Source of the DNA: an uncultured Bdellovibrio sp.
GTDB taxonomy: Bacteria; Bdellovibrionota; Bdellovibrionia; Bdellovibrionales; Bdellovibrionaceae
Assembly (NCBI GenBank): GCA_963932905.1
Contig: CAWVRN010000003.1
Span: 128,001-192,000 of the forward strand
Reading direction: 5' to 3'
DNA: 64,000 nucleotides
Shown here: one piece after another, positions 44,347-64,000 of the stretch
Position numbering within the stretch: position 1 is the first letter of the stretch
Layout of the letters: each line of letters starts with the position of its first letter
Translations under genes and position numbers: made by a program
Notes under the pieces: model-generated
What the model was told of the DNA's origin: nothing
The model's database searches: none
Seen by the model: only the letters and a program-made list of their open reading frames with translations

Positions 44347-44595
44347 AAATTTTAATTACAAGAGTCAGGTCTAAAATTGATATTATTTTTGCTAATTTAA
44401 CAATTTGTGGAATCAATTGGACCTGAAACAGTGATATCTTCCGTCTTAAGGAAGTGCAGTACCGGAACGAAAACCATTACAACCGTTCTCCCTATTTTGT
44501 CACTACTGCCGACGTCCCTGTAAAGTGTCACTGAAGTAACTGTGGGTAGCCTCTCTGGCAACGTATAACGGCATACCTATTGTAAATTTGAAGAT

Positions 44596-47500
44596 ATGCG
44601 CCTAGGTCTTTTTATTCCTCTATGTATCCTAATTATTTTCGCTTTTAAATCCTCCTACGCGCTTGCGGATGATGTCTCAAAAAAAGACAATCTCTATGAT
44701 CAAGTTGGTGAACTTCTTCAAAACGATTCTTACTTCCGCGCCGGCTGGACTTCATTATTAGAAAGCCTGAAAGCTAATTCCATTTCTGAAATCATCAGCT
44801 ACAATGGTGGTCTAGCAACCGAAAACCTGGAACTGGCCGCACAATGGAATCGCGAGCTATACAAAATTTACGATGAATTGATCGTTGGTTTTGAAGATAA
44901 AATGCAAGGTCGCAGGCCGCTGATCCTGATTTCTGACGGCCCTAGTACTTCCATCGAAGTTGGGAAAATACACACTCAAAACATAATCGACGGTATTGCC
45001 AAACGGCTGAAACTTTCTACCCAAAGTCTTTACGTGATTGTCGTGTCAACCCGTACGCTGAATGAATTTGGTTCCGTTCGCGATCAAATCGCCGGGCAAT
45101 TGGCGCATGAACTGACTCACATCAAAAATGGTGACCTAGATAAATCCGGTGCAAGTGGCTTTATCAGTCGTGCCCACTCTAAAGGAAACGAAACCGCTGC
45201 CGATCTGGGCGCCATTGAATTCTGCAAGGGGAAATTTTCTTTGCGTAGCCTGATCAACAATTTTTCAAGGCTTCAGGTGGTTCATTCAAATAAAAACAAA
45301 CCATCGATAGTCAGTACTTTAACTCGAGCCCATCCCGCCGATGAAGTAAGGCAAAATTCGTCCGCCCTTTCTGCCATTGATTTATTAATGATGTATCCTC
45401 AGTACGATATCGCTGAAACCAAATTGAAAATTCCGCATTTCGGGTTGTATTCAAAAATCGACTACGCTAGTGCGGTCGAGCGCGCCCAAATAGTTCAAAT
45501 ACTTTTGTCGTCAAGTCATAAATTAAATGAATCTGAATTTATGAAATTAAAAATCTCCGTTCGCAAACTGACACCGCATGAATCCGTAGAAATCCAAAAC
45601 GAAGTTTTAGATCGCGTAATGTCGCAACCATCAAAGGACATTTCTCTTAACGCTAGCACCGTTACCGATCTTTTAAAATTACCCAACAAGTTAGCAGAAA
45701 TCGACCTACAAAATACTTTAACCGACTCTACGTTTGTTCGTTGGTTTGATCAGGTAGGAAAATTCATAAACGAGATCAATCTGGACATGCTTTCTTCAAA
45801 AGAAAGAGAGTCGTTGTTTAAACTTGTCCTGAAACCAGAAAACACCGACTACCTTATTCGTCACAGACAAGATGGGTCGGTAAAACAATTTTTTGAAAAT
45901 GTTTTAGTTCCCATTTTCAAAGACACCGGAATGTGGGCCGTTTTTTTTGATAGTCCGCTATCGCTTGAATTAATTCGCCACCTAAAGCAATCATCACTGC
46001 CCGTTACCGAACACGAAGTCGTCAATCTAGAATCGATAACTCGACGACATTATACCTATTTTCAAAACCTACCGGGATCCCAATCTGTGTACTGGTATTA
46101 CCAACAAGCCAAAAAAACCTATTACAGCCAGGTCAGTATCAACGCAACAAATTTAGGCAAAGACTTCGTCATCGATAGCATTTTAGAAACTCTACAGACC
46201 AAGGAACTCAAAGGTTTAGAAACCAAATTCCCCAAAACTATATCATTTGAAAATTATAAAAAAAAAGATGACGTCAAAAAACTCGTTCTCAGCCTGAGTC
46301 AAAATTTCGATTGGCAAATTGAATTTATTCAAAGGTTATCTTCACGTATCCCGCCATATTCTATTTTCCATAACGGGTTCGCGGGTGATTTTGATTTAAA
46401 TGACGAAATAAAAAAAATATTCTATCGAACTCTGGCGTCTGAAAGGACAACCACGGAACAAAAAATATTAATTTTTAAGTTGTTACTAAAATCTAATATT
46501 CACTTTGATGGCAAAGGAATGAATTTCCTTAGCTCGGCCTACAAACAGTTTACTCCAGACCAACGACGCAGTTTGTTCTACCCAAAAGAATTGCTAGCAT
46601 TGACGGATGACGACTTTAGTAAAATCCAACAAAAAGAGCATTCCGGCCACGAGCACAATAGTATATTGTTTCGGTCCGGTTCCTACTACGTTGAGCTTGT
46701 AGAGCTTTTTTACAAACGTGGCCTAGAGTTTCCTTTAACTGGCAAGGAACTAAGTCAGCTAATCAAATTTTTCGAAGCCACTGGACAGCACTATACGCTA
46801 AACACAAAGAGTCACGTCGTTAAATATTTAGTTTCTGAATTAATTAAGCATAAATCTGAAGTCCCATTCGAAGAATTTGCAAAAAGCTTTCAGATTCTTT
46901 TGAACCGTGTAGCCTACCCGGCTTCAAGGCCAGCGGTCCAACATGTCTTCCCCCATCAACTAGATGAATTTTCAAATGCATTTAAAGAATCGCTTCAACA
47001 AACAGGAACGTGGGATTTACGAACAGTGGCTAAATTTGCAGACCACAATGCCATGTTCCTTAACCTTTCCACCGCTTCGGTAGCCGAACTAATGGAAAAA
47101 CATTTCGAGCAAATCTTAGCGATCGAAAATCGTGACTATAAGCTATCATCCGCTCAAAACATGTTTAAAGAATTTCGAAAAACCTACTACCTGCATGTTA
47201 GTCATCGAACGGCGTACTTAAATCTGTTTGAAAAATCGTTGGCATTGATGCAGGTGACTCCAGCTGAGTATAAAAGTTTCAGATCCAACGCGTTGGATGT
47301 CGATGGTCTTAGTTTGGATCGTCCAAGTATTTTGGATAAAATGCTAGTTGATTTTGGTGATGGCATTATCGAATGGACAATGAACCAAGAGCCTAAAAAT
47401 CAACTAGAGTTTATTGACTATATAATGAACTCAGAAAAACCCTTGCCTGGATGGGTCACAGAGGAAACACAAAAAAAATCCCGAAATGGCGAAATTGCAG

Positions 47501-49128
47501 AATACGTATCAGATGTGCTAGAGAAAGTTGAAAATCTGAAAAGCATCTATCTTCGATCAGATCCCGTTATGCAATCGGCAGTGATCAGCTATTTCCTTAC
47601 GAATAGTCGTCGGGGACTTTTACAGTCGACCACTCATGAGGATATTCTATTGAAGCGGTTAACCAAAGGTATGTCGCCCAATCAAACTGAAATGGTAATG
47701 GCATTCTATCGCGCGATGAAAAAAACAGAACCAAATTTCTACACCCACATGCTGTCACGGGCTGTTGTCCTGAAGAATCAAAATCGCGGAAAATCCACCG
47801 ACCCTTCTCCGCTTTTAGTACCGGTAGTAGAGTATTTTGATGTCCCAGGAATTAAGCTTGCGCAACTGTCGCATTTCGGGTTTGACGGGGCCGAGAAAAT
47901 GGAAGGCTTTGAAAAATTTTACGAATCGGCGGTAGTTCTTTCTAATTCGCAAATACTGGATCACATCGCCGAACTCTATGGTGATCGTTTTCCTGCTCAG
48001 TGGAGATTTATTAAACCGCTTGGTTTTGGTTCTGCCAATTATGCTGTTTTAATCTATGATGAAAATGAAAAACGCGAATTTGTTTTAAATATTCCAAGGA
48101 AAAATATTGCCGCAATATCCAGTCAAAAGTTTACGCACTTTCAAACGTTTTTGAATCATTTAAATAGTGAGCTTCAGGGTAAAGGAGAAGTTATAGAACT
48201 TTTGGGCGGTCTATCTAAATTCCTTAAGAGGTCCATGGAACTAGAATTCGATCGCGCCCGTGTATTCCAAAGAACCAAGCAAGCTTCAAATATATATCGA
48301 GGAAGGGCAAAAGGTTGGAAGTTCGTTCCGGTCCAGGTCGGTAACGTCGATGCAAACGGAGTCATCAGTATGAGTCGCGCTCAAGGCGAATCGTTGGCCA
48401 GTTTAGAAAAATCCAATCCAAAACTATTTCGAAAAAGCTCTGAAGCGATTGCCGATTTCTTGGGTGATCGACTATTAAATCAAAACGAGACCGTTCGCCT
48501 AAATACCAATGGCGACTGGCACCCGGGGCAATTTTTTGTTGATCGAACTACGTCACAATTTTCCATTTTAGATTTTGGACAAGAGTCAGAAATGACCGAA
48601 AACGAACTTATCTTCGCCAAAGACCTATTGACGATTCTTTCCGCCGATGAATTTGCAAAACATACCAATTTCGATCGCGACCAGGCGTTTGCACTATTAC
48701 AAAAAAGCCTTTCCGAACACATGGGAGTTACACTTTCTGCAAAAAGATTAGATGGCTTCACACACGCTATGGATCGCTCGACATCCATGTCACGTTTTAT
48801 TTACCTAGTTAGTTATCTGGAAAATCAAGGCATCCAAGTCCCGGTCACATCAGGGCACTGGATCAAAGAAGTAAATGCCATCCTAAATTTTGAACGCGAA
48901 GCGGGCGTGAAAAACAGATTCTCTGACAAATTAAAAACAGAACTTTTTAATCACCTACGGTCCCGCCGTCCCGATGTGAAAATCAAACTAAACTCCATCT
49001 GGGGCGACCGTATGGCTAGAATGAAATCGTTATTTACTCAGGCGAAACAAAAAACAGTATCCCTGTTTAGAAAACAAAAAGAAGCACCGACCGATGAATC
49101 TAATGCCTGTCTAAAATTTTACAAATGA
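44596..49128 (+). CDS. Large secreted protein: N-terminal M48-like zinc peptidase plus C-terminal ABC1/UbiB-like atypical kinase
   Basis: Signal peptide; LAHELTH...E.AAD...HP...R; IKLAQL, PLG.GS, ELEF, DWHPGQ, LDFG. Confidence 0.75.
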   Translation: MRLGLFIPLCILIIFAFKSSYALADDVSKKDNLYDQVGELLQNDSYFRAGWTSLLESLKANSISEIISYNGGLATENLELAAQWNRELYKIYDELIVGFEDKMQGRRPLILISDGPSTSIEVGKIHTQNIIDGIAKRLKLSTQSLYVIVVSTRTLNEFGSVRDQIAGQLAHELTHIKNGDLDKSGASGFISRAHSKGNETAADLGAIEFCKGKFSLRSLINNFSRLQVVHSNKNKPSIVSTLTRAHPADEVRQNSSALSAIDLLMMYPQYDIAETKLKIPHFGLYSKIDYASAVERAQIVQILLSSSHKLNESEFMKLKISVRKLTPHESVEIQNEVLDRVMSQPSKDISLNASTVTDLLKLPNKLAEIDLQNTLTDSTFVRWFDQVGKFINEINLDMLSSKERESLFKLVLKPENTDYLIRHRQDGSVKQFFENVLVPIFKDTGMWAVFFDSPLSLELIRHLKQSSLPVTEHEVVNLESITRRHYTYFQNLPGSQSVYWYYQQAKKTYYSQVSINATNLGKDFVIDSILETLQTKELKGLETKFPKTISFENYKKKDDVKKLVLSLSQNFDWQIEFIQRLSSRIPPYSIFHNGFAGDFDLNDEIKKIFYRTLASERTTTEQKILIFKLLLKSNIHFDGKGMNFLSSAYKQFTPDQRRSLFYPKELLALTDDDFSKIQQKEHSGHEHNSILFRSGSYYVELVELFYKRGLEFPLTGKELSQLIKFFEATGQHYTLNTKSHVVKYLVSELIKHKSEVPFEEFAKSFQILLNRVAYPASRPAVQHVFPHQLDEFSNAFKESLQQTGTWDLRTVAKFADHNAMFLNLSTASVAELMEKHFEQILAIENRDYKLSSAQNMFKEFRKTYYLHVSHRTAYLNLFEKSLALMQVTPAEYKSFRSNALDVDGLSLDRPSILDKMLVDFGDGIIEWTMNQEPKNQLEFIDYIMNSEKPLPGWVTEETQKKSRNGEIAEYVSDVLEKVENLKSIYLRSDPVMQSAVISYFLTNSRRGLLQSTTHEDILLKRLTKGMSPNQTEMVMAFYRAMKKTEPNFYTHMLSRAVVLKNQNRGKSTDPSPLLVPVVEYFDVPGIKLAQLSHFGFDGAEKMEGFEKFYESAVVLSNSQILDHIAELYGDRFPAQWRFIKPLGFGSANYAVLIYDENEKREFVLNIPRKNIAAISSQKFTHFQTFLNHLNSELQGKGEVIELLGGLSKFLKRSMELEFDRARVFQRTKQASNIYRGRAKGWKFVPVQVGNVDANGVISMSRAQGESLASLEKSNPKLFRKSSEAIADFLGDRLLNQNETVRLNTNGDWHPGQFFVDRTTSQFSILDFGQESEMTENELIFAKDLLTILSADEFAKHTNFDRDQAFALLQKSLSEHMGVTLSAKRLDGFTHAMDRSTSMSRFIYLVSYLENQGIQVPVTSGHWIKEVNAILNFEREAGVKNRFSDKLKTELFNHLRSRRPDVKIKLNSIWGDRMARMKSLFTQAKQKTVSLFRKQKEAPTDESNACLKFYK

Positions 49129-49389
49129 TATTATAGCGAGAAAAACCCTATTTTAGAGCGATGATACCGCAGTCCATGGACCAGATCCTAAACACAGAAT
49201 GATTTCTTCGGCCTAAATATTTTTAGACGATTTTCCCGTAGAAGGAAAAATGGCGCGATATGCGCTAAAATCGACGGCGCCGGGAAACCATGTCGCCCTG
49301 CCAAGACCAAACCAGGAAACTATTTCCGAATGTTTGTAAAATCCAAATATTCCGTTGCTTCAGGATACTTTCGCCCTTAGAAGTGTCCT

Positions 49390-49964: not shown

Positions 49965-50092
49965 CTACCAGAGACTGGACGATATTGCCAGAAATGGGCC
50001 GATCCCGAGTCTATGCATTCAATCCAAAATCACCTCTCTTAAAACCAGTGAAAGAACCAAAGTGGAAAACCGCCACTGAAGAACAAATAGGT
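49965..50092 (+). pseudogene. Multiply deleted remnant of a paralogue of the 53746-54685 wHTH/NTase module
   Basis: Three joined pieces similar to 53746-53772, 53984-54051 and 54147-54190. Confidence 0.85.
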
Positions 50093-52293: not shown

Positions 52294-52324
52294 ACCTCTT
52301 CCACGTCAAGGAAGTGGGCTACCA
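52294..52324 (-). repeat. tRNA-Val(GAC) fragment (D-loop to variable loop), att-like site
   Basis: acctcttccacgtcaaggaagtgggctacca; homologous to the longer copies. Confidence 0.8.
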
Positions 52325-52407
52325 AATAGCGCCCTTTGCAATTAAAACCATTTTGAGCTTATAAAATCTAAAGTCCTCCGTTGTAGATTCTGTCTTTTTG
52401 TCATAAT

Positions 52408-52632
52408 ATGGCAGAAAGCGATACTAAGGTTTGTATGGAAGTATATATAAAAGAATCTCTAAATTCAGTTTTAGCAAATACGGATCACGACTTAATTGAC
52501 TTTAATCTTTCGCTTTCTTATGAAGAACGACTGTTAAATCATCAGCGCTCACTAGACACAATAAACGAATTACTAAAGGCACGAGTACAAATTTATGGAG
52601 AATCTGAATCTTCTACTCAAACGCCTTCTTGA
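52408..52632 (+). CDS. Small partner protein, putative antitoxin
   Basis: D..LI..NL.LS.EERL motif; overlaps the start of the NTase gene. Confidence 0.65.
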   Translation: MAESDTKVCMEVYIKESLNSVLANTDHDLIDFNLSLSYEERLLNHQRSLDTINELLKARVQIYGESESSTQTPS

Positions 52633-53518
52633 TGCCAAAATCGACTTTGTACTGATTGGCGGATATGCCGCCGTTGTACATGGAGCATCCCAGGTCACTC
52701 ACGATCTGGATATTTGCGCCGTTATTACAGAAGAACAACTTGTAAAACTAAAAGCGGCACTCAAGGGACTAGATCCTAAACACAGAATGAATCCTTCGGC
52801 TCAATTATCTTTGGACGATTTCCCAGCCGAAGGAAAGACCATAGACAACTACTATCTAAGAACTACAGCAGGAGTTTTGGATATCTTAAAAGAAGTTTCA
52901 ATTGTCGGAGATTTTGAAAAGTTAAAATCTAATGCCAATACAGTGAAAATTTTTGGTCACGAATGCAAAGTGATTTCACTCGATGATTTAATTACAGTAA
53001 AGAAATCAATGACTCGTCCAAAAGACAAAAGTGTTTTGGATGAGCTTTTGACAGTTAAGCAAAAGCTTTCAATAGATAGCGAGAGTTTTCTGAAAACTAT
53101 AAAAGCAAATAGTATCAGCTTTTCAGCAGTTAAAGTTATTGATGAAAATCACTTTGAATCTCGCGTAATTTTCAAAGATTCAAAAAACGAGTCCCTTAAT
53201 TTTGAAGTTGCAATATCCAAAGAAGATTTACGGAATTTTGCAGAAAGACTAAAATCCTTCCCAAAAGACAGTCACGACTATTTAGAAGTCATACTGAAGT
53301 CACTTAAATCTGAAAAAATTGGTTTATCCGTAAAAGTAGTAGATTCAAGCGGAAGATGCGAATTCAAATTAGAGCTAAAAGAAGTTAAAAAAATTGAACT
53401 AGGAATGAAATTCTCAAACACTATTTTAGCAGAACCTTTAAAACTTAATAAGTTAGGCCAATCAATAGAAAGTTGGCTCAATCATCCTTCGGGGAACTTC
53501 TTATTTTCCCTAAAATAA
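52595..53518 (+). CDS. Nucleotidyltransferase (DUF6036/AbiEii-like) with extra ~150-aa C-terminal domain
   Basis: FVLIGG.A...HG....T.DLDI; L...K....RPKD ends the typical domain near residue 155. Confidence 0.8.
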   Translation: MENLNLLLKRLLDAKIDFVLIGGYAAVVHGASQVTHDLDICAVITEEQLVKLKAALKGLDPKHRMNPSAQLSLDDFPAEGKTIDNYYLRTTAGVLDILKEVSIVGDFEKLKSNANTVKIFGHECKVISLDDLITVKKSMTRPKDKSVLDELLTVKQKLSIDSESFLKTIKANSISFSAVKVIDENHFESRVIFKDSKNESLNFEVAISKEDLRNFAERLKSFPKDSHDYLEVILKSLKSEKIGLSVKVVDSSGRCEFKLELKEVKKIELGMKFSNTILAEPLKLNKLGQSIESWLNHPSGNFLFSLK

Positions 53519-53566
53519 AAGGCGCAGCTAAAAGCCAGCAAGAACAAAAACGACGAGACAAGCAAA

Positions 53567-53694
53567 CCAATTCTTCCTAAAATTTCAAAATGCGAGGCGC
53601 CCGAGGACTTCGCGCGGAGGCGTGGCCCGTCCACGCCGCACAAGCGAGGTCCGAAGAGGCAACGAAGTCAGTTTGGAATTTTAGGAAGAATTGG
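53567..53694 (+). ncRNA. Structured hairpin element, copy A (unknown family)
   Basis: 23-bp outer stem with one G.T pair; nested stems ggacttcgc/gcgaggtcc and ggcgtgg/ccacgcc; covaries with copy B. Confidence 0.65.
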
Positions 53695-53751
53695 TGCGAA
53701 TAACTGGACTCGAACCAGTACCCACTTCCATGTCAAGGAAGTGGGCTACCA
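53692..53751 (-). repeat. tRNA-Val(GAC) 3' fragment, 60 nt, D-loop to CCA, att-like
   Basis: Minus strand TGGTAG...CTTCC TTGACAT GGAAG...ACTGG TTCGAGT CCAGT TATTCGC A CCA; no D-stem partner upstream. Confidence 0.9.
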
Positions 53752-53803
53752 GAAACTGGACTATATTGACCAATATTTGGTTGATATCGACCAGTTTCTG
53801 GTA
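53747..53803. promoter_or_regulatory. Operator palindrome over the promoter of the wHTH gene
   Basis: 13-bp perfect IR taccagaaactgg/ccagtttctggta plus inner imperfect IR; TTGATA-18-TATGAT before ATG 53817. Confidence 0.65.
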
Positions 53804-53816
53804 ATATGATAAATCC

Positions 53817-54149
53817 ATGCTAGAAGGAATATTCGGAAACAAAACCGCGGAAAAAGTACTACTTCATATTTTTCACTATGGAGAATCTCATGCATCGGCT
53901 ATTGCTGGTGATTTTAAAATGGCCCACAACCCTATTATTCAACAACTTAATCGTTTTGAGTTAGCGGGAATCTTAATTTCAAAAGAAATGGGTCGATCTC
54001 GAGTTTATTCATTTAATCCCAAATCACCTCTCTTAAAACCAGTGAAAGAACTTATAGAAATTGCGTACGAATCCATATCAATCTCTGAACGCCAAAAAAT
54101 ATTTCAAGTCCGTCGCCGTCCGCGCCGCAAAGGCAAGCCGGTTCAATGA
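53817..54149 (+). CDS. Winged-helix protein, putative antitoxin/regulator
   Basis: FG.KTA.KVLL, QL..E..G.L.S...GR.RVY.FNP; ATGA overlap with next gene. Confidence 0.8.
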   Translation: MLEGIFGNKTAEKVLLHIFHYGESHASAIAGDFKMAHNPIIQQLNRFELAGILISKEMGRSRVYSFNPKSPLLKPVKELIEIAYESISISERQKIFQVRRRPRRKGKPVQ

Positions 54150-54685
54150 AGGAACCTAATTGGAAAACCGCCACTGAAGAAAAAGTATGGCAATACGTGG
54201 GCTGGCATTTAGCCAAAAACGGAATTGAGACAATACTTGTCGGCGGCGCTGTCGCTGCAATTTATTCCGAAGGAATTTACAAATCAGGAGATTTAGATTT
54301 TGTTCTAAAAACATATATCGAAAACAAACTCACTGAAGCAATGGAGTCGATAGGTTTTCAAAGGCCTACTGGTCGACACTACGTTCACCCAGAATGCAGT
54401 ATTTTTATAGAGTTCATGCATGGACCGGTGGGTATAGGTGATGACGTAAAAATTAAGCCTGATGCAAAAACGATCGAAGGACAAAAACTATATATTTATT
54501 CTCCTACAGATTGCATACGCGATCGCCTAGCCTCTTATATTCATTTCAAAGCACGTGAATGTTTAGACCAGGCCGCACTCGTTGCTAAAAAATTTCCTTT
54601 TAATCAAAAGAAAGTAAAAGACTGGTGCGCTTCCGAAGGAGCTCCGCACGCTTTCGATGACTTAATGAAAAAAATTAAAAATTAA
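54146..54685 (+). CDS. Nucleotidyltransferase-fold protein, putative toxin
   Basis: LVGGA.A.IY..G.Y.SGDLDF; SPTD...DRL. Confidence 0.75.
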   Translation: MKEPNWKTATEEKVWQYVGWHLAKNGIETILVGGAVAAIYSEGIYKSGDLDFVLKTYIENKLTEAMESIGFQRPTGRHYVHPECSIFIEFMHGPVGIGDDVKIKPDAKTIEGQKLYIYSPTDCIRDRLASYIHFKARECLDQAALVAKKFPFNQKKVKDWCASEGAPHAFDDLMKKIKN

Positions 54686-54752
54686 GTCCCGCACAATCTA
54701 CAACTATTGGTAAATCAGGTAAGGGATCAAGACCTAACTTCTACAACTAAAC

Positions 54753-55358
54753 TCAGTCGATATGCTGACAACCTGCGCTTGTTATTCCAGAGCCAAGCAA
54801 AAGATTGGGTTTTAAAACGCCAGTTTTTAAAGCGTTCTTAATATCCTCACGAAACTGAGCCCAAAACTTGTCATTAATTGTCCATGGAAAATCATGTCTG
54901 ACTACAAAGTCGTGCGCCCCAAACAAAGCCATTAATACATTTCTGGCCTCAGTCGTTAGTTGTCCTCTTTCATCATAGGGGATTAACTTCCCGTCGGTTA
55001 CCGCAAATTTGATTGCGGCACCTCCTGAATAATCTTTTGTTCTCTTTAGAAGAAAACTATCGAAATTCAGCAGCTGAAATACCTTGCCTCGCTCAGGATC
55101 CTGCATTTCTTTGTCTAAACGCGTATCCATCTGATAGAGTTCTCCGAATTCATCCTTTTGCAAGCCCGCCGAGAAAATGTAATCCGCAATTGAAAACCCA
55201 TTCTGATTGGGGTTTTCAAGCGGTATTTCAATAATTTTTTTTACGTCTAGTTTTCTATCAGCAAAATAAATTCCTACTTCGCAATTCATTGTTCCTGAAT
55301 AAGCAGAACATGCAAAAAAGGAAGTAAGTAGGATTAAAATCTTATTATGCGCTTTCAT
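54753..55358 (-). CDS. Secreted hypothetical protein
   Basis: AGGAG RBS, signal peptide MKAHNK...AYS. Confidence 0.7.
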   Translation of the reverse strand: MKAHNKILILLTSFFACSAYSGTMNCEVGIYFADRKLDVKKIIEIPLENPNQNGFSIADYIFSAGLQKDEFGELYQMDTRLDKEMQDPERGKVFQLLNFDSFLLKRTKDYSGGAAIKFAVTDGKLIPYDERGQLTTEARNVLMALFGAHDFVVRHDFPWTINDKFWAQFREDIKNALKTGVLKPNLLLGSGITSAGCQHID

Positions 55359-55366
55359 GGAATCTC

Positions 55367-55768
55367 CTAGTTGCATTCAATTCTGCTTTTACTGCCGTCA
55401 TTTTCTAGCACATCCATGTAAAATAATTTTCCCCAACTATGAATTGATAATTTTCTATACTTAATGGCAGCACCCGTCTTTGGGTTGTACTCATAAATTT
55501 CAATGCCTTCCAAATCAGCGCCCTCCGAATGAGATTTAAATTCCAAATTTACAGACTCTTTTAGAGTCGCTCCCTCTAACTCGTAGCGATTTTCAAAGTG
55601 AATAATACCTCTGCCAAATCCAACCGCATATTTATACTGCAGCAAAGAGTAAGGTCCGCACTGGGCTACCTTTTTGGATTCAAATCCAGCGTCCGAAGTA
55701 GCCATGGCCTCTGAAAGAAGTGAAATAAGTAATGTTAAAACAAGTGTATTTAAAATTTTCATAGTCAT
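55367..55768 (-). CDS. Secreted hypothetical protein
   Basis: GAGG RBS, signal peptide, Cys near both ends. Confidence 0.7.
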   Translation of the reverse strand: MTMKILNTLVLTLLISLLSEAMATSDAGFESKKVAQCGPYSLLQYKYAVGFGRGIIHFENRYELEGATLKESVNLEFKSHSEGADLEGIEIYEYNPKTGAAIKYRKLSIHSWGKLFYMDVLENDGSKSRIECN

Positions 55769-55774
55769 ATCCTC

Positions 55775-56209
55775 CTATTTGATCGTCACGCAAAAATCTT
55801 TTTTTGTTCCATCGCCAACATAGGCACTTAACAACGCGTTGGCTCCTTCACTGCAATAGCTGGTGGTATAGGATAAATTCGATCCAGTGCTGTTGCGCCC
55901 AATTACGATTAGATTTTGATCATTATATTTTTGAGTAGTAGGGTTTAAATTTAAACTATAGAAGAAATATTTTTTTGGTTTTGTTACGTAAGCGAAAATT
56001 TTTCCATCTTCCAAAGTCGCCTCGCCAATATCTTCACCTTCGATTAACATTTCGCTAATACCTGTCTTATTTAACGAAACTTGAATTTTCTTTGTCAGAA
56101 CAGCATTAAGTTCACGATCATAGCCCGTGTTGATCTGGCCCGATTTCACGACGGGTGCGGCACTGGCCATAGCACTTATGACGGTTAATAAAACGGTAAA
56201 GCTTTTCAT
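55775..56209 (-). CDS. Secreted hypothetical protein
   Basis: AAGGAG RBS, signal peptide ending ASA. Confidence 0.75.
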   Translation of the reverse strand: MKSFTVLLTVISAMASAAPVVKSGQINTGYDRELNAVLTKKIQVSLNKTGISEMLIEGEDIGEATLEDGKIFAYVTKPKKYFFYSLNLNPTTQKYNDQNLIVIGRNSTGSNLSYTTSYCSEGANALLSAYVGDGTKKDFCVTIK

Positions 56210-56345
56210 AAAAACTCCTTTATTGGTTGATGACGCGAAGATAATTCATTGCGTTAATCGCTTCTAGATTAAATTGGTACAAAAGTTTACATTTTCAGTA
56301 CTTTTAGTTCATTATTTTCATTAAATAACCGATTATATTGATATA

Positions 56346-57149
56346 ATGAGTATTTTTAAATATCAGAATTTTCGCAAATACTTGAAGTCTGTCCAGGATG
56401 AACTACCTAAGAAGGGCCGCGGTACGATTACCCTATGGGCTTCTATTATCCAATCTACACCCACTCTAGTGAGCCAGATTTTAATAGGTAACAAGTCAAT
56501 GAGTTTAGAAATGGTCGATCGCCTATCGACTCATTTGGAGCTGTCTGAGAAAGAAAAAGACTACTTTATCTTGCTTGTAGAATTTGATCGCGCGGGTACA
56601 AAATCTTTAAAAGATTACTTCCTTAAGAAGATAGTGATTATGCAGGATGAATCACGCTATTTGAAAAATCAAATTAAAGGTATTACTGAACTACCGGCCG
56701 AGGTAAAAGCCATCTACTACTCACAGTGGGTGTATGCCGGTATTAGAAACCTCGTCGCCTGTGCTAAAATTGCGAATGCTGAAACGATCGCTGAGGAACT
56801 GAATCTTCCTAGGGAAACTATCTCTAATGTGATCGATTTTCTTGTGAAACATCAACTTATAGTTCCTGCAAAGAAAGGATGGGCTCCTGGTCCGCAAAGT
56901 ACGTTTGTTCCCGCCGACTCCCCGTTAGTTTACAAGCACCATCAGAATTGGAGGCTTAAAGGTATTCAACAAATGGATCTACAATCCAAAGAAGATTTGT
57001 TTTACACTTCACCAATGTCACTTTCGGCAGACTTAGCGAAAGAACTGCGCAGCCGTATCGTAAAGGTTATTCAAGACTTTCAAAAAGACATCGGCCCGTC
57101 AGAATCAGAAGTCGTTCGTTGCCTAAATATTGACTGGTTTGAATACTAG
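56346..57149 (+). CDS. TIGR02147/DUF4423-family protein
   Basis: IF.Y..FR.YL, E.DYF.LLV...RAG, YYS.W.Y..I, H.NWR, V..LNID.F; paralogue of 51476. Confidence 0.85.
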   Translation: MSIFKYQNFRKYLKSVQDELPKKGRGTITLWASIIQSTPTLVSQILIGNKSMSLEMVDRLSTHLELSEKEKDYFILLVEFDRAGTKSLKDYFLKKIVIMQDESRYLKNQIKGITELPAEVKAIYYSQWVYAGIRNLVACAKIANAETIAEELNLPRETISNVIDFLVKHQLIVPAKKGWAPGPQSTFVPADSPLVYKHHQNWRLKGIQQMDLQSKEDLFYTSPMSLSADLAKELRSRIVKVIQDFQKDIGPSESEVVRCLNIDWFEY

Positions 57150-57181
57150 GTTTTGGCCAACCATTTGCTATTTTATAGGGT

Positions 57182-58528
57182 ATGACGAAGACTACCCCCA
57201 ACCTATTGATTCCTATAGCATTTACGGTGTATTTCGTCGCATTTTTAGTCGCCTGTCAGCCTAAAAAAGATACTTCGCCTACAGCTTCACCCGCCCCTAC
57301 GAGCCCTCCGGGTCCGAGCGTTCCCGATTCCAAGGGTACGTCCGATCAAGGTGGAGGGGGAAATTTGATTAACGGCAAGCCTCTAGAGTTCTACAAAAAA
57401 GATATTACTCAGTTACCTGAGTATATAAAATTCGTAGATCCCATCGACAAAAAATTAAATGATATCCGTGAAGACAATCAAGCCGACAACGGAGTGACGT
57501 ACTTGGCAACCGCTGCCAAAAGAAAAACGTGGTACATAGTGCCGGTAAAACTTGAAGAGTTAGAAGCTGCGCGCATCGGCACCAATTTTAAATCGGATCA
57601 GGGCGCCTACCAAACAGAAAAAGAAATCTTTATTTCAGAACTTATATACAAAGATATGGACGAGGAACACAAAGCCCAATTACTTCTACATGAAACGGTA
57701 ATGGCTTTTTACTTGGTTAAATATGAAGACGGCCGTTTCTACTGTGAGGCATTCAAAAAAGCGAGCGTCCGTGAAAATTGTTTAAATAGTTTTACTGATA
57801 TGTCGGCTAAAACGGAATTTAAGCCTGCGCAAAGAAACGGAAAGTTTTTGGATCCGGAAGAATATGAAAGCATTCGCCATGTCACAGAATGGCTTTTTAA
57901 TGGATACAAAGCACTAACAAAATTAAAATTCGAAGAGAAAATGTTTGAAAAGAAATTTGATCCACGCGTATTCAACAATCGAAATATAGTTGATCGTCAA
58001 CAAAACCAGCCTACGGAAATGCAGACCAACGATATCTTAAAAATTCTCGAAACTCAGCAACTTACAAATCAATCCCTTACATACTGCGGATTTGATTTCA
58101 GCGCAAAAACTCCGACAGCTAGGCGTACATGCAAAATCGTCTACAACGTCAAAGATAAACTTTTAAATATGACAATTCAATCGGATGACGGAAAAACAGA
58201 ATCGATAGATTTTAATATCTACCCGACTATATTTGCTGCAAAAGTTGGTTTTAAAAATGGACTAACCTTATTCAACGTAAGATTCCAAGAAGCAGTACGT
58301 TCTGAGCACGGTAAATCATTCAGAACACTAATGTTTTGGTTACAGCATTCTACATCTACAGAATTCAATATTAAAGCCATCCGAATTCAAAAAAGCATGT
58401 GGATCAAACAAGATGAATCCGGAAATTCTCTTCGTTCCGAAGAAGTAAACCAAATTCCAGAAGAGGATATGTATAGACTCATTTACGGGGCTAAAGAAAC
58501 TGATATTTCTTTCGATGATTTAAACTAA
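57182..58528 (+). CDS. Lipoprotein with GT.D.GGGG motif and HExxM zincin-like motif
   Basis: Lipobox LVAC, Pro-rich linker, GTSDQGGGG, QLLLHETVM. Confidence 0.7.
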   Translation: MTKTTPNLLIPIAFTVYFVAFLVACQPKKDTSPTASPAPTSPPGPSVPDSKGTSDQGGGGNLINGKPLEFYKKDITQLPEYIKFVDPIDKKLNDIREDNQADNGVTYLATAAKRKTWYIVPVKLEELEAARIGTNFKSDQGAYQTEKEIFISELIYKDMDEEHKAQLLLHETVMAFYLVKYEDGRFYCEAFKKASVRENCLNSFTDMSAKTEFKPAQRNGKFLDPEEYESIRHVTEWLFNGYKALTKLKFEEKMFEKKFDPRVFNNRNIVDRQQNQPTEMQTNDILKILETQQLTNQSLTYCGFDFSAKTPTARRTCKIVYNVKDKLLNMTIQSDDGKTESIDFNIYPTIFAAKVGFKNGLTLFNVRFQEAVRSEHGKSFRTLMFWLQHSTSTEFNIKAIRIQKSMWIKQDESGNSLRSEEVNQIPEEDMYRLIYGAKETDISFDDLN

Positions 58529-58558
58529 AAAAAGAGAAAAGAACGGAAGAATCAGAAC

Positions 58559-58618
58559 TGTTGATCTGTAGTGAACTCGAACCACTGACCTCGTCGATGT
58601 CAAGGACGCGCGCTACCA
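58559..58618 (-). repeat. Divergent tRNA-Val(GAC) 3' fragment, 60 nt, att-like
   Basis: Minus strand TGGTAGCGCG CGTCC TTGACAT CGACG AGGTC AGTGG TTCGAGT TCACT...; same endpoints as the other copies. Confidence 0.8.
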
Positions 58619-58879
58619 AGATATAACTCATCCCAATTTGGACAGCAAAGCCTACAAACTTAACAGAGGCCGTTCCGAAACCTAGGGTCATAGTGACCGT
58701 AAGCTAGGATGAAAATTCGACAAGAATTGGAGACAATCGTCTCTTTAGCCAAATTCAGTACAGTTCAAATCATCTAAGAATTACAGCATCATAGGGGTTT
58801 TTCTCGCATTTTTGTACTGGGTTTAGTCAAAAAAAAGGGCGAATTAGTGTTGGCATAGCTTGCAGAATTTTTTATACAG

Positions 58880-59830
58880 ATGAAAGATTTAGGATTTAAA
58901 TTTTTAATATTCGTTTTAGTAGGACTAGCTCCTCACTTTGTTAATGCTCAAGCTTGCTTAAAGTTTTACAGCAGGTCGAATATTAAATCTGTACCTATGA
59001 AAATTGTGAATGACTTGTTTGCTGGATCCATTGACGGCTATTATGGTGAAACAAAAGCAGTTCTTGTGAATGCCTCCTTGGTATCAAGAAGGAATATTTC
59101 TGAGATCAATTCCTTATTTAATCAAACCCCTAATGGATACTATGGCCCAACGAAAGCATCGCTTGTGTACACATCGATTGTCTCTGGAAAACCAATTTCC
59201 GAACTGAACGCCATGTTTAATAAAACCACCGATGGCTATTATGGTGAAACAAAAGCAGCACTTGTGCATGCTGCTGCCGTCTCTGGAAAGCCAATTTCAG
59301 AAATCATCGATTTATTTAATCAAACCCCTAATGGATACTATGGCCCAACGAAAGCATCGCTTGTGTACACATCGATTGTCTCTGGAAAACCAATTTCCGA
59401 ACTGAACGCCATGTTTAATAAAACCACCGATGGCTATTATGGTGAAACAAAAGCAGCACTTGTGCATGCTGCTGCCGTCTCTGGAAAGCCAATTTCAGAA
59501 ATCATCGATTTATTTAATCAAACCCCTAATGGTTATTACGGTGAAACAAAGGCGTTACTCGTATACTCGGTGGTGGCCTCGGGAAAACCGATTTCGGAAA
59601 TCATCGATTTGTTTAATCAAACCCCTAACGGTTATTACGGTGAAACAAAGGCGTTACTCGTCTATGCTTCGATCGCTTCAGGAAAACCGGTTTCCCAGAT
59701 CAATGCTTTATTTAATCAAACCCCTAATGGTTATTACGGGCCGACAAAAGCATTGCTTGTCCTAAGCTCATTGGGTCTAAAAATTCCATTTGAACATCTT
59801 TTAATTGTCCTAAATCTTAAAAAGAAATAA
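58880..59830 (+). CDS. Secreted protein with eight 33-aa GYYG repeats
   Basis: Signal peptide; FNQTPNGYYG[EP]TKA.LV...SGKPISEI..L units; exact 198-bp DNA period 59114-59532. Confidence 0.85.
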   Translation: MKDLGFKFLIFVLVGLAPHFVNAQACLKFYSRSNIKSVPMKIVNDLFAGSIDGYYGETKAVLVNASLVSRRNISEINSLFNQTPNGYYGPTKASLVYTSIVSGKPISELNAMFNKTTDGYYGETKAALVHAAAVSGKPISEIIDLFNQTPNGYYGPTKASLVYTSIVSGKPISELNAMFNKTTDGYYGETKAALVHAAAVSGKPISEIIDLFNQTPNGYYGETKALLVYSVVASGKPISEIIDLFNQTPNGYYGETKALLVYASIASGKPVSQINALFNQTPNGYYGPTKALLVLSSLGLKIPFEHLLIVLNLKKK

Positions 59831-60139
59831 GCCAGATGGGTTTTGATGTTTTCCCTTCCCAATGAAATTTCGGACTTGTGAACGCTGGATCAAATGCACA
59901 AGAACTAGTTAACAAAATGCTCAAAGAACATTCTGTCGCCCTTCTAGGGTGATCTCATTACGGACTACCAAACCACATCAGAATTTCTGTAGGTTTACCA
60001 GAAACAAATCGGACAGTTTTATCACAACTCAAAATTCAATTCCAAAAGATAAACACTCAATCCTGTTAGAAATTTTACGCAAAACAACAAAGAGCGCAGC
60101 CAAAGGCCAGCCAGAAAAAAGAACGACGATCCAAGCACA

Positions 60140-60269
60140 CTTAAACTTCCTAATAGATCAAAATGCACGGCGGACCGATTTCAAAAGCGCGGAGGCGTGC
60201 TCAATGCACGTCGCAGCGATTTTGGAATCGAGGCCAACGCAGTCAGTTTGATCTATTAGGAAGTTTAAG
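60140..60269 (+). ncRNA. Structured hairpin element, copy B
   Basis: Perfect 23-bp outer stem cttaaacttcctaatagatcaaa; nested cgatttcaaaa/ttttggaatcg and ggcgtgc/gcacgtc. Confidence 0.65.
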
Positions 60270-60272
60270 AAT

Positions 60273-60332
60273 AGGTGCGAATAACTGGACTTGAACCAGT
60301 GACCTCTTCCATGTCAAGGAAGCGCGCTACCA
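60273..60332 (-). repeat. tRNA-Val(GAC) 3' fragment, 60 nt, most canonical copy (ends CCT)
   Basis: TGGTAGCGCG CTTCC TTGACAT GGAAG AGGTC ACTGG TTCAAGT CCAGT TATTCGC A CCT; 5' acceptor strand absent. Confidence 0.9.
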
Positions 60333-60668
60333 AAGACTGAAGAATCACCAGCCCGGTTGCATAAATTTAGAAATTCCACATAATTAATAGATTTGGGATG
60401 CAGGATCGGGATTCTAATTGGTTTTGGTCAGGACATTTCTATTCGATTGCGAGTTAAATTAGAATGTGTAGCCATTTTAGGACTTCAATTATGTTTAATT
60501 CTGAGACCTTCTAAATAACAAAATTTATTGTTCGATAGTCGGGTAAACATTTAGCCGATTAACTAATTGCCATAAACCTTTGAGTTATTTAACCGGATCT
60601 GAAACCATTTCGCTAAGTGAAGCTATTTTCGTCATTGACAGAAAAAAATATCAATTGGGAGAAAATCT

Positions 60669-62766: not shown

Positions 62767-62771
62767 TTATT

Positions 62772-63995
62772 TGTAGAAGTTAGGACTTGATCTGACACAT
62801 CTTGGATAGAAAAGATGTGGAAAACTCAGTTACCCTTTTGTTTGGTACTAACAAACAAAAGGGGCCAATCCCCAAAGGATAACTGAGCATGCAAACAATA
62901 CAACAAAAAATCATATCAAACAAACTCGGACTTTTAAGTTTAGCTGAAGAATTACAAAATGTTTCTAAAGCCTGTAAAATAATGGGTTATTCTCGTGACA
63001 CATTTTACCGATATAAAGAATTAAAAGACGACGGAGGAATCGATGCGCTTCACGAAAGAACTCGAAAGAAACCCAATTTTAAAAACAGAGTAGATGGAAC
63101 TATTGAATCTAGCGTCTTGAAAATGGCTATCGACTTTCCGGTTTTTGGCCAAAAACGCGCTGCCAATGAACTTCGAAAGAACGGAATTTTTCTATCGCCA
63201 GCTGGGGTTCGAAGTATTTGGCGTCGTCAAGATCTAGAGACTTTTAAAAAGCGCCTCGCGGCACTAGAAGCTAAAAGCGCTGCTGAGGGGTTGGTTTACA
63301 CCGAAGCCCAAATCGCTGCGCTAGAACGTAAGAAAGACGACGACGTTGCCTTCGGTGAAATTGAAACGGCACATCCTGGATATTTAGGATCGCAAGACAC
63401 GTTTTACGTTGGCACGATTAAAGGCGTTGGTCGAATTTACCAGCAAACTTTTGTTGATACATATTCCAAAGTTGCCTTCGCTAAATTATATAATCAGAAA
63501 ACACCGATCACCGCAGCTGACATATTAAACGACAAGGTTCTTACATTTTTTGAAAGTTACTCCGTGCCTTTGCTAAGAATATTAACAGATCGCGGAACTG
63601 AATTTTGCGGCAAGGTCGATCAGCACGACTACCAGCTCTATATTGGCGTTAACGACATCGAACACACCAAAACTAAAGTCGCACATCCACAAACCAACGG
63701 AATATGCGAAAGATTTCATAAAACAATCCTGCAAGAGTTTTATCAAGTCACGTTTAGAAAGAAAATTTATAAAGCGATGGATGATCTGCAAACTGATTTA
63801 GATCAATGGATGATAGAATATAATGAAAGGAGAACCCACCAAGGTAAAATGTGCAATGGACGAACCCCGATGGAAACTTTTATTGACGGAATTAAAATCT
63901 GGAGACAAAAGGACATCGGTTTAAACTTGAACTGACAGTACAAAATAATTTGCTGAACAAAAAGGCGACTGTCAGATCAAATCTAAACTTCTACA
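62772..63995 (+). mobile_element. IS481-family insertion sequence, 1224 bp
   Basis: 26-bp terminal IRs, 23/26 match, TGT...ACA ends (62772-62797, 63970-63995); single transposase ORF. Confidence 0.93.
62889..63935 (+). CDS. IS481-family DDE transposase
   Basis: NVSKACK.MG.SRDTFYRY HTH; QDTFYVG, LTDRGTE, PQTNGICERF, YN..R.HQG. Confidence 0.95.
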   Translation: MQTIQQKIISNKLGLLSLAEELQNVSKACKIMGYSRDTFYRYKELKDDGGIDALHERTRKKPNFKNRVDGTIESSVLKMAIDFPVFGQKRAANELRKNGIFLSPAGVRSIWRRQDLETFKKRLAALEAKSAAEGLVYTEAQIAALERKKDDDVAFGEIETAHPGYLGSQDTFYVGTIKGVGRIYQQTFVDTYSKVAFAKLYNQKTPITAADILNDKVLTFFESYSVPLLRILTDRGTEFCGKVDQHDYQLYIGVNDIEHTKTKVAHPQTNGICERFHKTILQEFYQVTFRKKIYKAMDDLQTDLDQWMIEYNERRTHQGKMCNGRTPMETFIDGIKIWRQKDIGLNLN

Positions 63996-64000
63996 CCTAA

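What the first reader, a model, noticed from the sequence alone, without database searches (positions are those of the whole stretch)
53522..60332. Two covarying copies of a ~128-nt nested hairpin fused to the tRNA fragment 3' end
Seen: copy A (53567-53694) and copy B (60140-60269) have different stem sequences but keep pairing in three nested helices. Linker motifs are conserved (aaaatgc..ggcg, gcggaggcgtg, gagg...aacg.agtcagttt). All four non-Watson-Crick pairs I found in these stems are G.T on the plus strand, so the fold is favoured on the strand antisense to the tRNA. Homology extends ~45 nt further left (gcgcagc.aaa.gccagc.agaa...aacgacga..caagca.ac), giving a ~230-240 nt unit of leader, hairpin and tRNA fragment. 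In copy A the stem includes the CCA complement. Inference: a selected RNA or ssDNA structure, possibly a recombination substrate like attC/REP sites, or an ncRNA/MITE that targets tRNA ends.
Basis: partly seen in the sequence, partly recalled or inferred. Interest (0 to 1): 0.75.

Follow-up and report, generated by a model that had tools for sequence, protein, structure and literature searches.

The report
ERIC-like hairpin repeat fused to tRNA
The two hairpins are real, but they are copies of a widespread scattered repeat, first listed in Geobacter and resembling the E. coli ERIC repeat, of which a minority sit exactly on the tail of tRNA genes and often copy the tRNA's last few letters into their own stem.

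Summary
Observation confirmed: A (53566-53695) and B (60140-60269) are strong, covarying long hairpins that fold best on the + strand. They are not a tRNA-specific novelty. The same core occurs 13 times in this genome (11 away from tRNA), in 22 of 41 related genomes and across several phyla, and matches the Gmet_R1001-1024 repeats of Geobacter metallireducens, none tabulated beside a tRNA. Structure-aware models link it weakly, in both directions, to E. coli ERIC/IRU; sequence-only profiles do not. Still, a minority of copies start exactly at the CCA of many different tRNAs, always in one orientation, and in 12 of 20 junctions the stem pairs with the tRNA's last 4-7 bases. In this genome and one complete relative all 13 copies face the same way relative to replication; other genomes are weaker or unbiased. 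Best reading: a non-autonomous ERIC-type element whose tRNA-Val-fused copy was multiplied by tandem island integration, with arms kept matched by fold-back copying. No attC boxes, no partner transposase found. The scan's index holds no look-alike of this sequence, but similar kinds of repeat were noted in other lineages.

The parts
53522..53565 (+). 45-nt extension ('leader') of unit A; shared only by the tRNA-fused lineage (A, B, G006, partly G007), marks the unit's outer boundary
   Evidence: 41/45 identical to G006, 38/46 to B
53566..53695 (+). Hairpin element copy A (purine-rich folding strand = +); outer stem includes the complement of the tRNA's last 4 nt
   Evidence: 126/130 identical to the copy fused to intact tRNA-Val in G006
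53692..53751 (-). tRNA-Val(GAC) 3' fragment, nt 17-76, att-site remnant
   Evidence: 90% to the intact gene at C3:248450-248525
53721..53745 (.). Anticodon arm of fragment A turned into a perfect 9-bp palindrome around the 7-nt loop
53747..53803 (.). 27-bp-arm inverted repeat whose end overlaps the 5' edge of fragment A
   Evidence: I9
60094..60139 (+). Extension ('leader') of unit B
60140..60269 (+). Hairpin element copy B; best hit of an ERIC-only model in the whole window
60274..60333 (-). tRNA-Val(GAC) 3' fragment, nt 16-75, identical to the intact gene
58559..58619 (-). tRNA-Val fragment of the second (C3:207241) type, no hairpin; att remnant
52294..52328 (-). Short tRNA-Val fragment, no hairpin; att remnant
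44410..44463 (-). Decayed tRNA-Val fragment, outermost att remnant found

Best explanation
A and B are copies of a dispersed, non-coding, non-autonomous ~130-nt hairpin element: the family that Aklujkar et al. 2009 listed as Gmet_R1001-1024, which works like (and is probably a distant relative of) ERIC/IRU. SHOWN: multi-copy, intergenic, several phyla; conserved purine-rich internal loops inside freely varying but paired stems; folding on the purine-rich strand; young near-identical families with fixed ends and tandem multimers; a minority of copies fused to the CCA of many tRNA species in one orientation. SHOWN locally: the region is a tRNA-Val(GAC) integration hotspot (intact gene plus conjugative island at C3:248 kb, a string of 3' fragments down to 172 kb), and a near-identical copy of unit A follows the intact tRNA-Val in G006. 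INFERRED: (1) the element spreads in trans through a folded single strand, by an unidentified enzyme that reads the loops and not the stem sequence; (2) one lineage landed on a tRNA CCA end, became part of the arm that follows the tRNA in small tRNA-targeting islands, and was left behind each displaced 3' fragment as newer islands integrated, giving A and B; (3) fold-back copying (template switching) rewrites one arm from the other, which explains mirrored changes and the overshoot that copies the tRNA's last 4-7 nt, halted where longer pairing would compete with the acceptor stem.
For: 13 copies in own genome, 2 at tRNA fragments. R1 matches in 22 of 41 genomes, up to 60 per genome. Geobacteraceae, Acidobacteriota, Nitrospirae, Gemmatimonadota, Myxococcota, Omnitrophica, Planctomycetia; R1, built only from this genus, scores most of those tested at 41-70 bits, a few at 34-38. 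Same core in the published Gmet alignment. Covariation and strand bias. G039 family with fixed ends, tandem arrays and 5 mirrored rare arm changes in 23 copies. ERIC cross-hits: R2 finds the ERIC position on the purine-rich strand in 13 of 14 E. coli loci, best 38.6 and 35.6 bits; an ERIC-only model ranks copy B first in the 64-kb window, 26.6 bits, E 4.7e-4. Island context; G006 match. Inverted copies of 21-23 nt of a tRNA 3' end beside elements in L076 and L315.
Against: No partner enzyme found: no copy in 30 Y1 or 10 DUF772 loci, no co-occurrence with either family, no recurrent mobile gene among neighbours. Several copies hold the same site across the genus and beyond (zapA, flgN-flgK, rplU-rng), which fits a retained function as well as an old insertion. 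No empty site was compared, so mobility is inferred. One-sided arm changes (16) outnumber mirrored ones (5) in G039. ERIC link is absent in sequence-only profiles, weak in a motif-only score (2 of 13 ERICs above the 99th background percentile), absent with strict filters on the whole E. coli chromosome, and an unrelated perfect hairpin scored 26.4 bits with the ERIC model. G.T bias shows that one strand's fold matters, which template switching alone does not explain.
Confidence: 0.55

Rival explanations
1. Domesticated cis-acting RNA structure (mRNA-end stabiliser, RNase substrate or terminator-like element, as shown for ERIC in Yersinia) kept by selection at fixed gene boundaries; tRNA-fused copies act on the tRNA precursor.
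For: Copies are intergenic and often just downstream of a gene: 99 of 145 have the right-hand gene ending at the element on the pyrimidine-rich strand (crude ORF calls). Sites conserved across genera. Conserved purine-rich internal loops. Orientation-dependent effect of ERIC on mRNA stability is reported in PMC2229807 (passages read).
Against: The strand that folds better and carries the G.T pairs is mostly the non-transcribed one. Copy number runs from 0 to 60 among relatives. In G000 and G017 orientation follows replication even where genes lie on the other strand.
Confidence: 0.2
2. A dedicated tRNA-end-targeting retro- or ssDNA element: the tRNA's CCA end (or the gene's CCA) is recognised by pairing with the distal arm, as in tRNA-primed reverse transcription, so that the captured 4-7 nt are a footprint of the insertion reaction itself.
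For: Base-exact fusion to CCA at Val, Arg, Phe, Ser, Cys, Met, Asp, Leu, Lys genes; 6 of 145 against 0.06 expected per base; 11 vs 0 by orientation; the G007 tRNA-Arg copy follows the tRNA against the replication bias (L375); 12 of 20 junctions pair 4-7 tRNA nt; in G016 7 of 8 copies sit on tRNA ends or their fragments.
Against: About 95% of copies are not at tRNAs; per intergenic gap the excess is slight (6 vs 2.1 expected, P 0.02; two of the six were in the training set); 8 of the 12 capturing junctions come from one genome; 1 of 123 distant loci is fused; no reverse transcriptase among the recurring neighbours listed.
Confidence: 0.15
3. A polar chromosome signal (replication, restart or segregation site) rather than a mobile repeat.
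For: 13 of 13 copies in G000 and 13 of 13 in the complete G017 chromosome put the folding strand on the leading-strand template; 14 of 17 and 20 of 25 callable copies in G007 and G012.
Against: 7 of 17 in G036; about 15 of 24 in G. metallireducens (counted with origin and terminus assumed); 19 of 41 relatives have no match. A bias also follows if copies with the fold on the lagging-strand template are lost faster.
Confidence: 0.06
4. attC- or REP-like recombination substrate for the local cassettes.
For: Long imperfect hairpin with a preferred strand, beside short gene cassettes.
Against: No GTTRRRY box in either unit; only 2 of the 5 fragments in the window carry the hairpin; cassettes are bounded by tRNA fragments, which a tyrosine integrase explains; no link to Y1 genes.
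Confidence: 0.04

Closest known systems
Gmet_R1001-R1024 'predicted short RNA elements' of Geobacter metallireducens (Aklujkar et al. 2009, PMC2700814, Suppl. Fig. S1, Table S4)
   Same: Same core read on the pyrimidine-rich strand (TTGTGCGRCGT..ACGCCTCCGCG with CGTTG and GCC(T)TG motifs outside it), multi-copy, intergenic; Geobacter loci found with that core score strongly with a model built from this genus only.
   Different: The paper gives no structure of the whole element, no mechanism, a narrow range, and no tRNA neighbour for any of 24 copies. A and B have longer outer stems, a variant central palindrome, a 45-nt extension and fusion to a tRNA end.
ERIC / IRU / RU-1 (127-bp enterobacterial repeat; consensus read in Delihas 2007, PMC2759123 Table 1a; properties in Delihas 2008, PMC2229807)
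   Same: Same length, same nested long stem-loop, same order and spacing of loop motifs, same folding strand; reciprocal covariance-model hits.
   Different: No sequence-only similarity; A and B lack the TA-flanked ERIC ends; different phyla; tRNA-end fusion is not mentioned in the passages I read (0 occurrences of 'tRNA' in both papers).
Tandem tRNA-anchored genomic islands with tyrosine integrases (attL/attR fragments; general knowledge, recalled)
   Same: Intact tRNA-Val(GAC) next to an integrase-like gene and conjugation genes, followed by a series of 3' fragments bounding cargo.
   Different: Explains the fragments and the local duplication, not the hairpin; fragments start at the D-loop (nt 16), and the integrase hit is below the Pfam cut-off (19.7 vs 27.1 bits).
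REP/REPIN with RAYT, and integron attC
   Same: Folded single strand with conserved unpaired bases; tandem clusters; strand bias relative to replication (recalled for attC and IS200/IS605).
   Different: No GTAG/CGTC-footed short palindrome seen, no Y1 linkage, no R boxes.

Membership tests
Gmet_R1001-1024 family | Central palindrome GRCGTAG...CTACGCC with its conserved flanks | tested here: met
   A carries a covarying variant (GGCGTGG/CCACGCC) and the exact flanks of the pattern; B a further variant
Gmet_R1001-1024 family | Multi-copy, intergenic | tested here: met
   13 copies in own genome; flanking ORFs listed
Gmet_R1001-1024 family | Direct score of the G. metallireducens copies against the model | not tested
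   That genome was not among the 80 named loci; other Geobacter loci score 44-70 bits; the published alignment was compared by eye
ERIC/IRU | About 127 nt, long imperfect stem-loop with central inverted repeat | tested here: met
   130 nt
ERIC/IRU | Sequence similarity to the ERIC consensus | tested here: not met
   Reciprocal nhmmer profiles give nothing: 0 of 109 members reach 5 bits
ERIC/IRU | Shared structure plus loop motifs (covariance-model cross-match) | tested here: inconclusive
   13 of 14 ERIC loci hit at the right place and strand, 6 at E<0.01; copy B top of the window, copy A 11.1 bits; but a generic hairpin reached 26.4 bits and strict filters found nothing
ERIC/IRU | TA at both termini with TA target duplication | tested here: not met
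   A ends ACC...GGT, B CTT...AAG; TA-flanked ends do occur in the G039 family
ERIC/IRU | Orientation-dependent RNase E effect on co-transcribed mRNA | not testable with these tools
   No RNA run was listed
Integron attC | R'/R'' boxes (GTTRRRY and its complement) at the stem base | tested here: not met
   None within 53522-53770 or 60093-60335
Integron attC | Integron integrase beside the array | tested here: inconclusive
   10 PF00589 matches in the genome, none within C3:165-255 kb over the threshold; not typed as IntI or otherwise
REP/REPIN (RAYT) | Repeats flank a Y1 (RAYT) gene and co-occur with it | tested here: not met
   0 matches in 30 Y1 loci (30 of the Y1 matches had loci); G012 39 copies, 0 Y1; G029 and G040 17 and 15 Y1, 0 copies
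IS5/IS1182-derived MITE | Ends shared with a DUF772 transposon present in the same genomes | tested here: not met
   PF05598 in 6 of 41 genomes, absent from G007, G012, G039; 0 matches in its 10 loci
Rfam RNA families | Gathering-score match | tested here: not met
   Only tRNA matches

The most novel reading that the evidence does not exclude
ERIC is the enterobacterial tip of an ancient, cross-phylum superfamily of structure-defined mobile hairpins that are recognised by their purine-rich loops rather than by terminal repeats, rebuild one arm from the other during insertion, and have repeatedly evolved lineages that home to the CCA end of tRNA genes by pairing with it; the mobilising enzyme is unknown and is neither a Y1 nor an IS5/IS1182 transposase.
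Probability: 0.2. Interest if true: 0.8.

Novelty: new variant of a known kind. Interest (0 to 1): 0.5.

Why it matters
How ERIC moves and where it came from is, to my knowledge (recalled), still open. A related family with young expansions (G039, G007, G012), a strand and replication bias, and base-exact tRNA junctions gives datable insertions and natural footprints with which the mobilising enzyme and the arm-copying step can be sought. It also warns that perfect covariation in long bacterial hairpins can come from a repeat family and from template switching, not only from a new RNA gene. For this locus alone the result is modest: two relic copies in an island hotspot.

Tried and rejected
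Rfam, whole window at gathering score and 53400-60500 at E<=10: only tRNA. attC boxes: none. Y1/RAYT and DUF772 partners: no linkage. Clustering of neighbouring ORFs of about 180 loci: the 30 largest clusters printed were housekeeping genes. BLAST/nhmmer side hits C2:25610, C5:72118, C17:59765, C48:13688 were inspected and dropped as partial or coding-region chance matches; the models do not report them. Two of four relaxed-threshold tRNA calls in the 123 distant loci overlap the hairpin itself and were dropped. One search, the first reverse-orientation control, had too short a gap and is void; it was repeated. RNA evidence: no RNA holder was listed, so no reads were laid; this says nothing about expression. 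Sequence-only and motif-only tests of the ERIC link were negative or weak. In one search the G039 arm display was out of register and was redone. Literature searches that gave nothing on this family outside the Geobacter papers or on an ERIC link: (listings only), PMC3733652 has no occurrence of Geobacter, Bdellovibrio or Desulfo-; most subscription papers, including Hulton 1991, De Gregorio 2005 and Wilson and Sharp 2006, were not seen. The G. bemidjiensis supplements (PMC2996986), which list more repeat families, were not opened.
Full report
OBSERVATION. Both hairpins are present where stated. A spans 53566-53695 and B 60140-60269. As RNA the + strand gives -70.5 and -69.0 kcal/mol (z -8.2, -11.0) against -62.0 and -61.1 for the - strand; DNA parameters agree. 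The two share 91 of 130 positions, their left extensions 38 of 46. Rfam knows nothing here but tRNA.

LOCAL CONTEXT. The window is G000:C3:128001-192000. The intact tRNA-Val(GAC) lies at C3:248450-248525, a second intact Val(GAC) gene at 207241-207316, and seven fragments between 172.4 and 207.5 kb, most starting near nt 16. Beside the intact gene lie an integrase-like ORF (PF00589, 19.7 bits, below cut-off), a TraG/TraC ATPase and an FtsK-type protein. This is a tandem island hotspot (inference from general knowledge). Only 2 of the 5 fragments inside the window carry the hairpin. In G006 a copy 126/130 identical to A, with a 41/45 identical extension, follows the intact tRNA-Val; in G001 a related copy does too; in G007 a copy with B-like outer arms and a similar extension follows an intact tRNA-Arg(TCG). 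So A and B are best read as the stretch that follows the tRNA in island arms, stranded behind displaced 3' fragments. DUF4423 regulators among the cargo suggest a Bdellovibrio-like host (recalled association, not tested).

THE FAMILY. Iterated profiles and two covariance models find 13 copies in the genome, 11 away from tRNAs. R1 (14 sequences of this genus) matches in 22 of 41 genomes, 0 to 60 copies each. The core is that of the 24 Gmet_R10xx elements in Aklujkar et al. 2009 (PMC2700814: passages, Suppl. Fig. S1 read whole, Table S4 rows searched). None of the 24 is tabulated next to a tRNA. In 109 model-aligned copies 87.1% of cells pair and 43 of 45 pairs show two-sided changes, 0 of 500 shuffles (the alignment leans to the model). 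The conserved letters lie in the internal loops and the inner helix. With wobble pairs switched off, 1x1 mismatches in the outer stem are G.T 90 times and A.C 8 times on the purine-rich strand, so one strand's fold is favoured.

SIGNS OF MOBILITY. The G039 copies examined (21 regions, of 60 matches) are nearly identical, end in fixed TA-flanked arms and form head-to-tail multimers. In 23 of them the arms hold 473 Watson-Crick, 46 G.T, 2 A.C and 8 other pairs, with 5 mirrored and 16 one-sided rare changes. G007 and G012 have their own young sub-families. No partner gene emerged. Other copies keep their site across the genus or beyond.

REPLICATION POLARITY. In G000 all 13 copies have the purine-rich strand on the C-rich strand, that is the leading-strand template (the skew is weak at the two C23 copies and the C1 copy). 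In the complete G017 chromosome, dnaA at position 394, 8 copies at 0.01-1.11 Mb are on - and 5 at 1.97-2.91 Mb on +. Against the 61% of ORFs on the G-rich strand each 13/13 has P 0.0016. Elsewhere: G007 14 concordant, 3 discordant, 3 unclear (20 of 31 tested); G012 20/5/1 (26 of 39); G034 3/0 (3 of 11); G036 7/10/1 (18 of 18); G. metallireducens about 15 of 24 (from, origin and terminus assumed). The bias is real in some genomes and not a family law.

TRNA ENDS. Of 145 copies with flanks (of 157 matches in 9 genomes), 6 start at the 3' end of an intact tRNA (Arg, Phe, Val, Ser, Cys, Met), all in the window's orientation; two were in the training set and three come from G016, where four more sit on duplicated tRNA 3' fragments. 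Expected: 2.1 per gap (P 0.02) or 0.06 per base (using G000's gap counts). A strict pattern found 11 fusions in 10 of 384 genomes, 0 for the backward control, adding Asp, Leu, Val(TAC), Phe and Met genes; the reverse orientation gave 0 of 384. Among the 123 distant loci one is fused (L076, tRNA-Lys) and one follows a terminator (L045). In 12 of 20 junctions the outer stem pairs with the last 4-7 nt of the tRNA, whatever the tRNA (L440, L436, L174 and L076 left out as cut, partial or complex; 8 of the 12 are from G016 and A/G006 are orthologues). L076 and L315 carry inverted copies of 21-23 nt of the tRNA end. Fragment A's anticodon arm has also become a perfect palindrome. These are the marks expected of fold-back copying; that template switching can create and maintain hairpins is argued in PMC8794818 (abstract only). 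The stop at 4-7 nt is what selection for acceptor-stem folding would give (inference).

ERIC. The motif order recalled ERIC to me, so I tested it. The element in the E. coli aceF-lpd gap matches the consensus printed in PMC2759123 Table 1a (passages). R2 (109 sequences, no ERIC) matches it at full length, 21.2 bits. In 14 loci found by BLAST with it R2 hits the ERIC position on the purine-rich strand in 13, best 38.6 and 35.6 bits, 6 at E<0.01, off-target at most 10.9 bits, and no hit on the opposite strand of the same hairpins. An ERIC-only model ranks copy B first in the 64-kb window (26.6 bits, E 4.7e-4) and A fourth; in 57 family loci 11 of 16 hits fall on elements, but the two best are an unrelated hairpin. 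Sequence-only profiles fail; a motif-only score prefers the purine strand in 13 of 13 ERICs but exceeds the 99th background percentile in only 2; R1 with strict filters finds nothing in E. coli. I put distant homology at about even odds. It works like ERIC; it is not a member by sequence or ends.

VERDICT. Real feature, known kind. New here, as far as my searches reach: the breadth of the family, its possible tie to ERIC, the replication bias, and the CCA-fused lineages with capture of the tRNA end. Mechanistic steps beyond these observations are inferred. The scan's index has no look-alike of this sequence but lists similar kinds of element in other lineages; I did not test their claims on their own sequences.

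Noticed in passing
L321 (G016:C33), L164, L324, L441-L443, 40-120 nt beyond the hairpin: A second repeat type, beginning like a tRNA T-loop and forming its own hairpin, recurs behind tRNA-fused copies and in L321 ends in a regenerated tRNA 3' fragment; tRNA trailers in these genomes collect several repeat kinds.
   Followed up: no
G000:C3:207241-207316 and 207455-207485: A second intact tRNA-Val(GAC) with a different acceptor stem lies inside the island array, preceded by repeated TGGTA words that also occur at the left end of the conjugative island (possible integrase arm sites).
   Followed up: partly
window 58880-59830: 316-aa ORF made of about seven 33-aa repeats (GYYG motif), signal peptide-like start; no convincing Pfam family.
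   Followed up: partly
window 49169-49248 and 49990-50089: Non-coding remnants that copy pieces of the nucleotidyltransferase-like and HTH genes at 52595-54685.
   Followed up: no
window 52408-53518 and 53817-54685: Two small-gene plus nucleotidyltransferase-like pairs flank unit A; the first is fused to a HEPN-like piece (weak Pfam hits), toxin-antitoxin-like cargo.
   Followed up: partly
window 62767-64000 and 54725-54750: IS481-like element (rve, HTH) with 31-nt inverted ends, and a solitary end at 54725.
   Followed up: partly
G000:C7:43976-44115: One copy lies right after zapA, where 6S RNA usually lies (recalled), and is conserved there in several genus members.
   Followed up: no
G000:C2:184054-184147 and G017:C1:66407-66507: Shortened copies lack the inner helix but keep the outer loop motifs and a perfect outer stem.
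   Followed up: no
window 44596-49128: 1510-aa secreted-looking protein with a HEXXH-like motif near its start and a kinase-like end; no Pfam match.
   Followed up: partly
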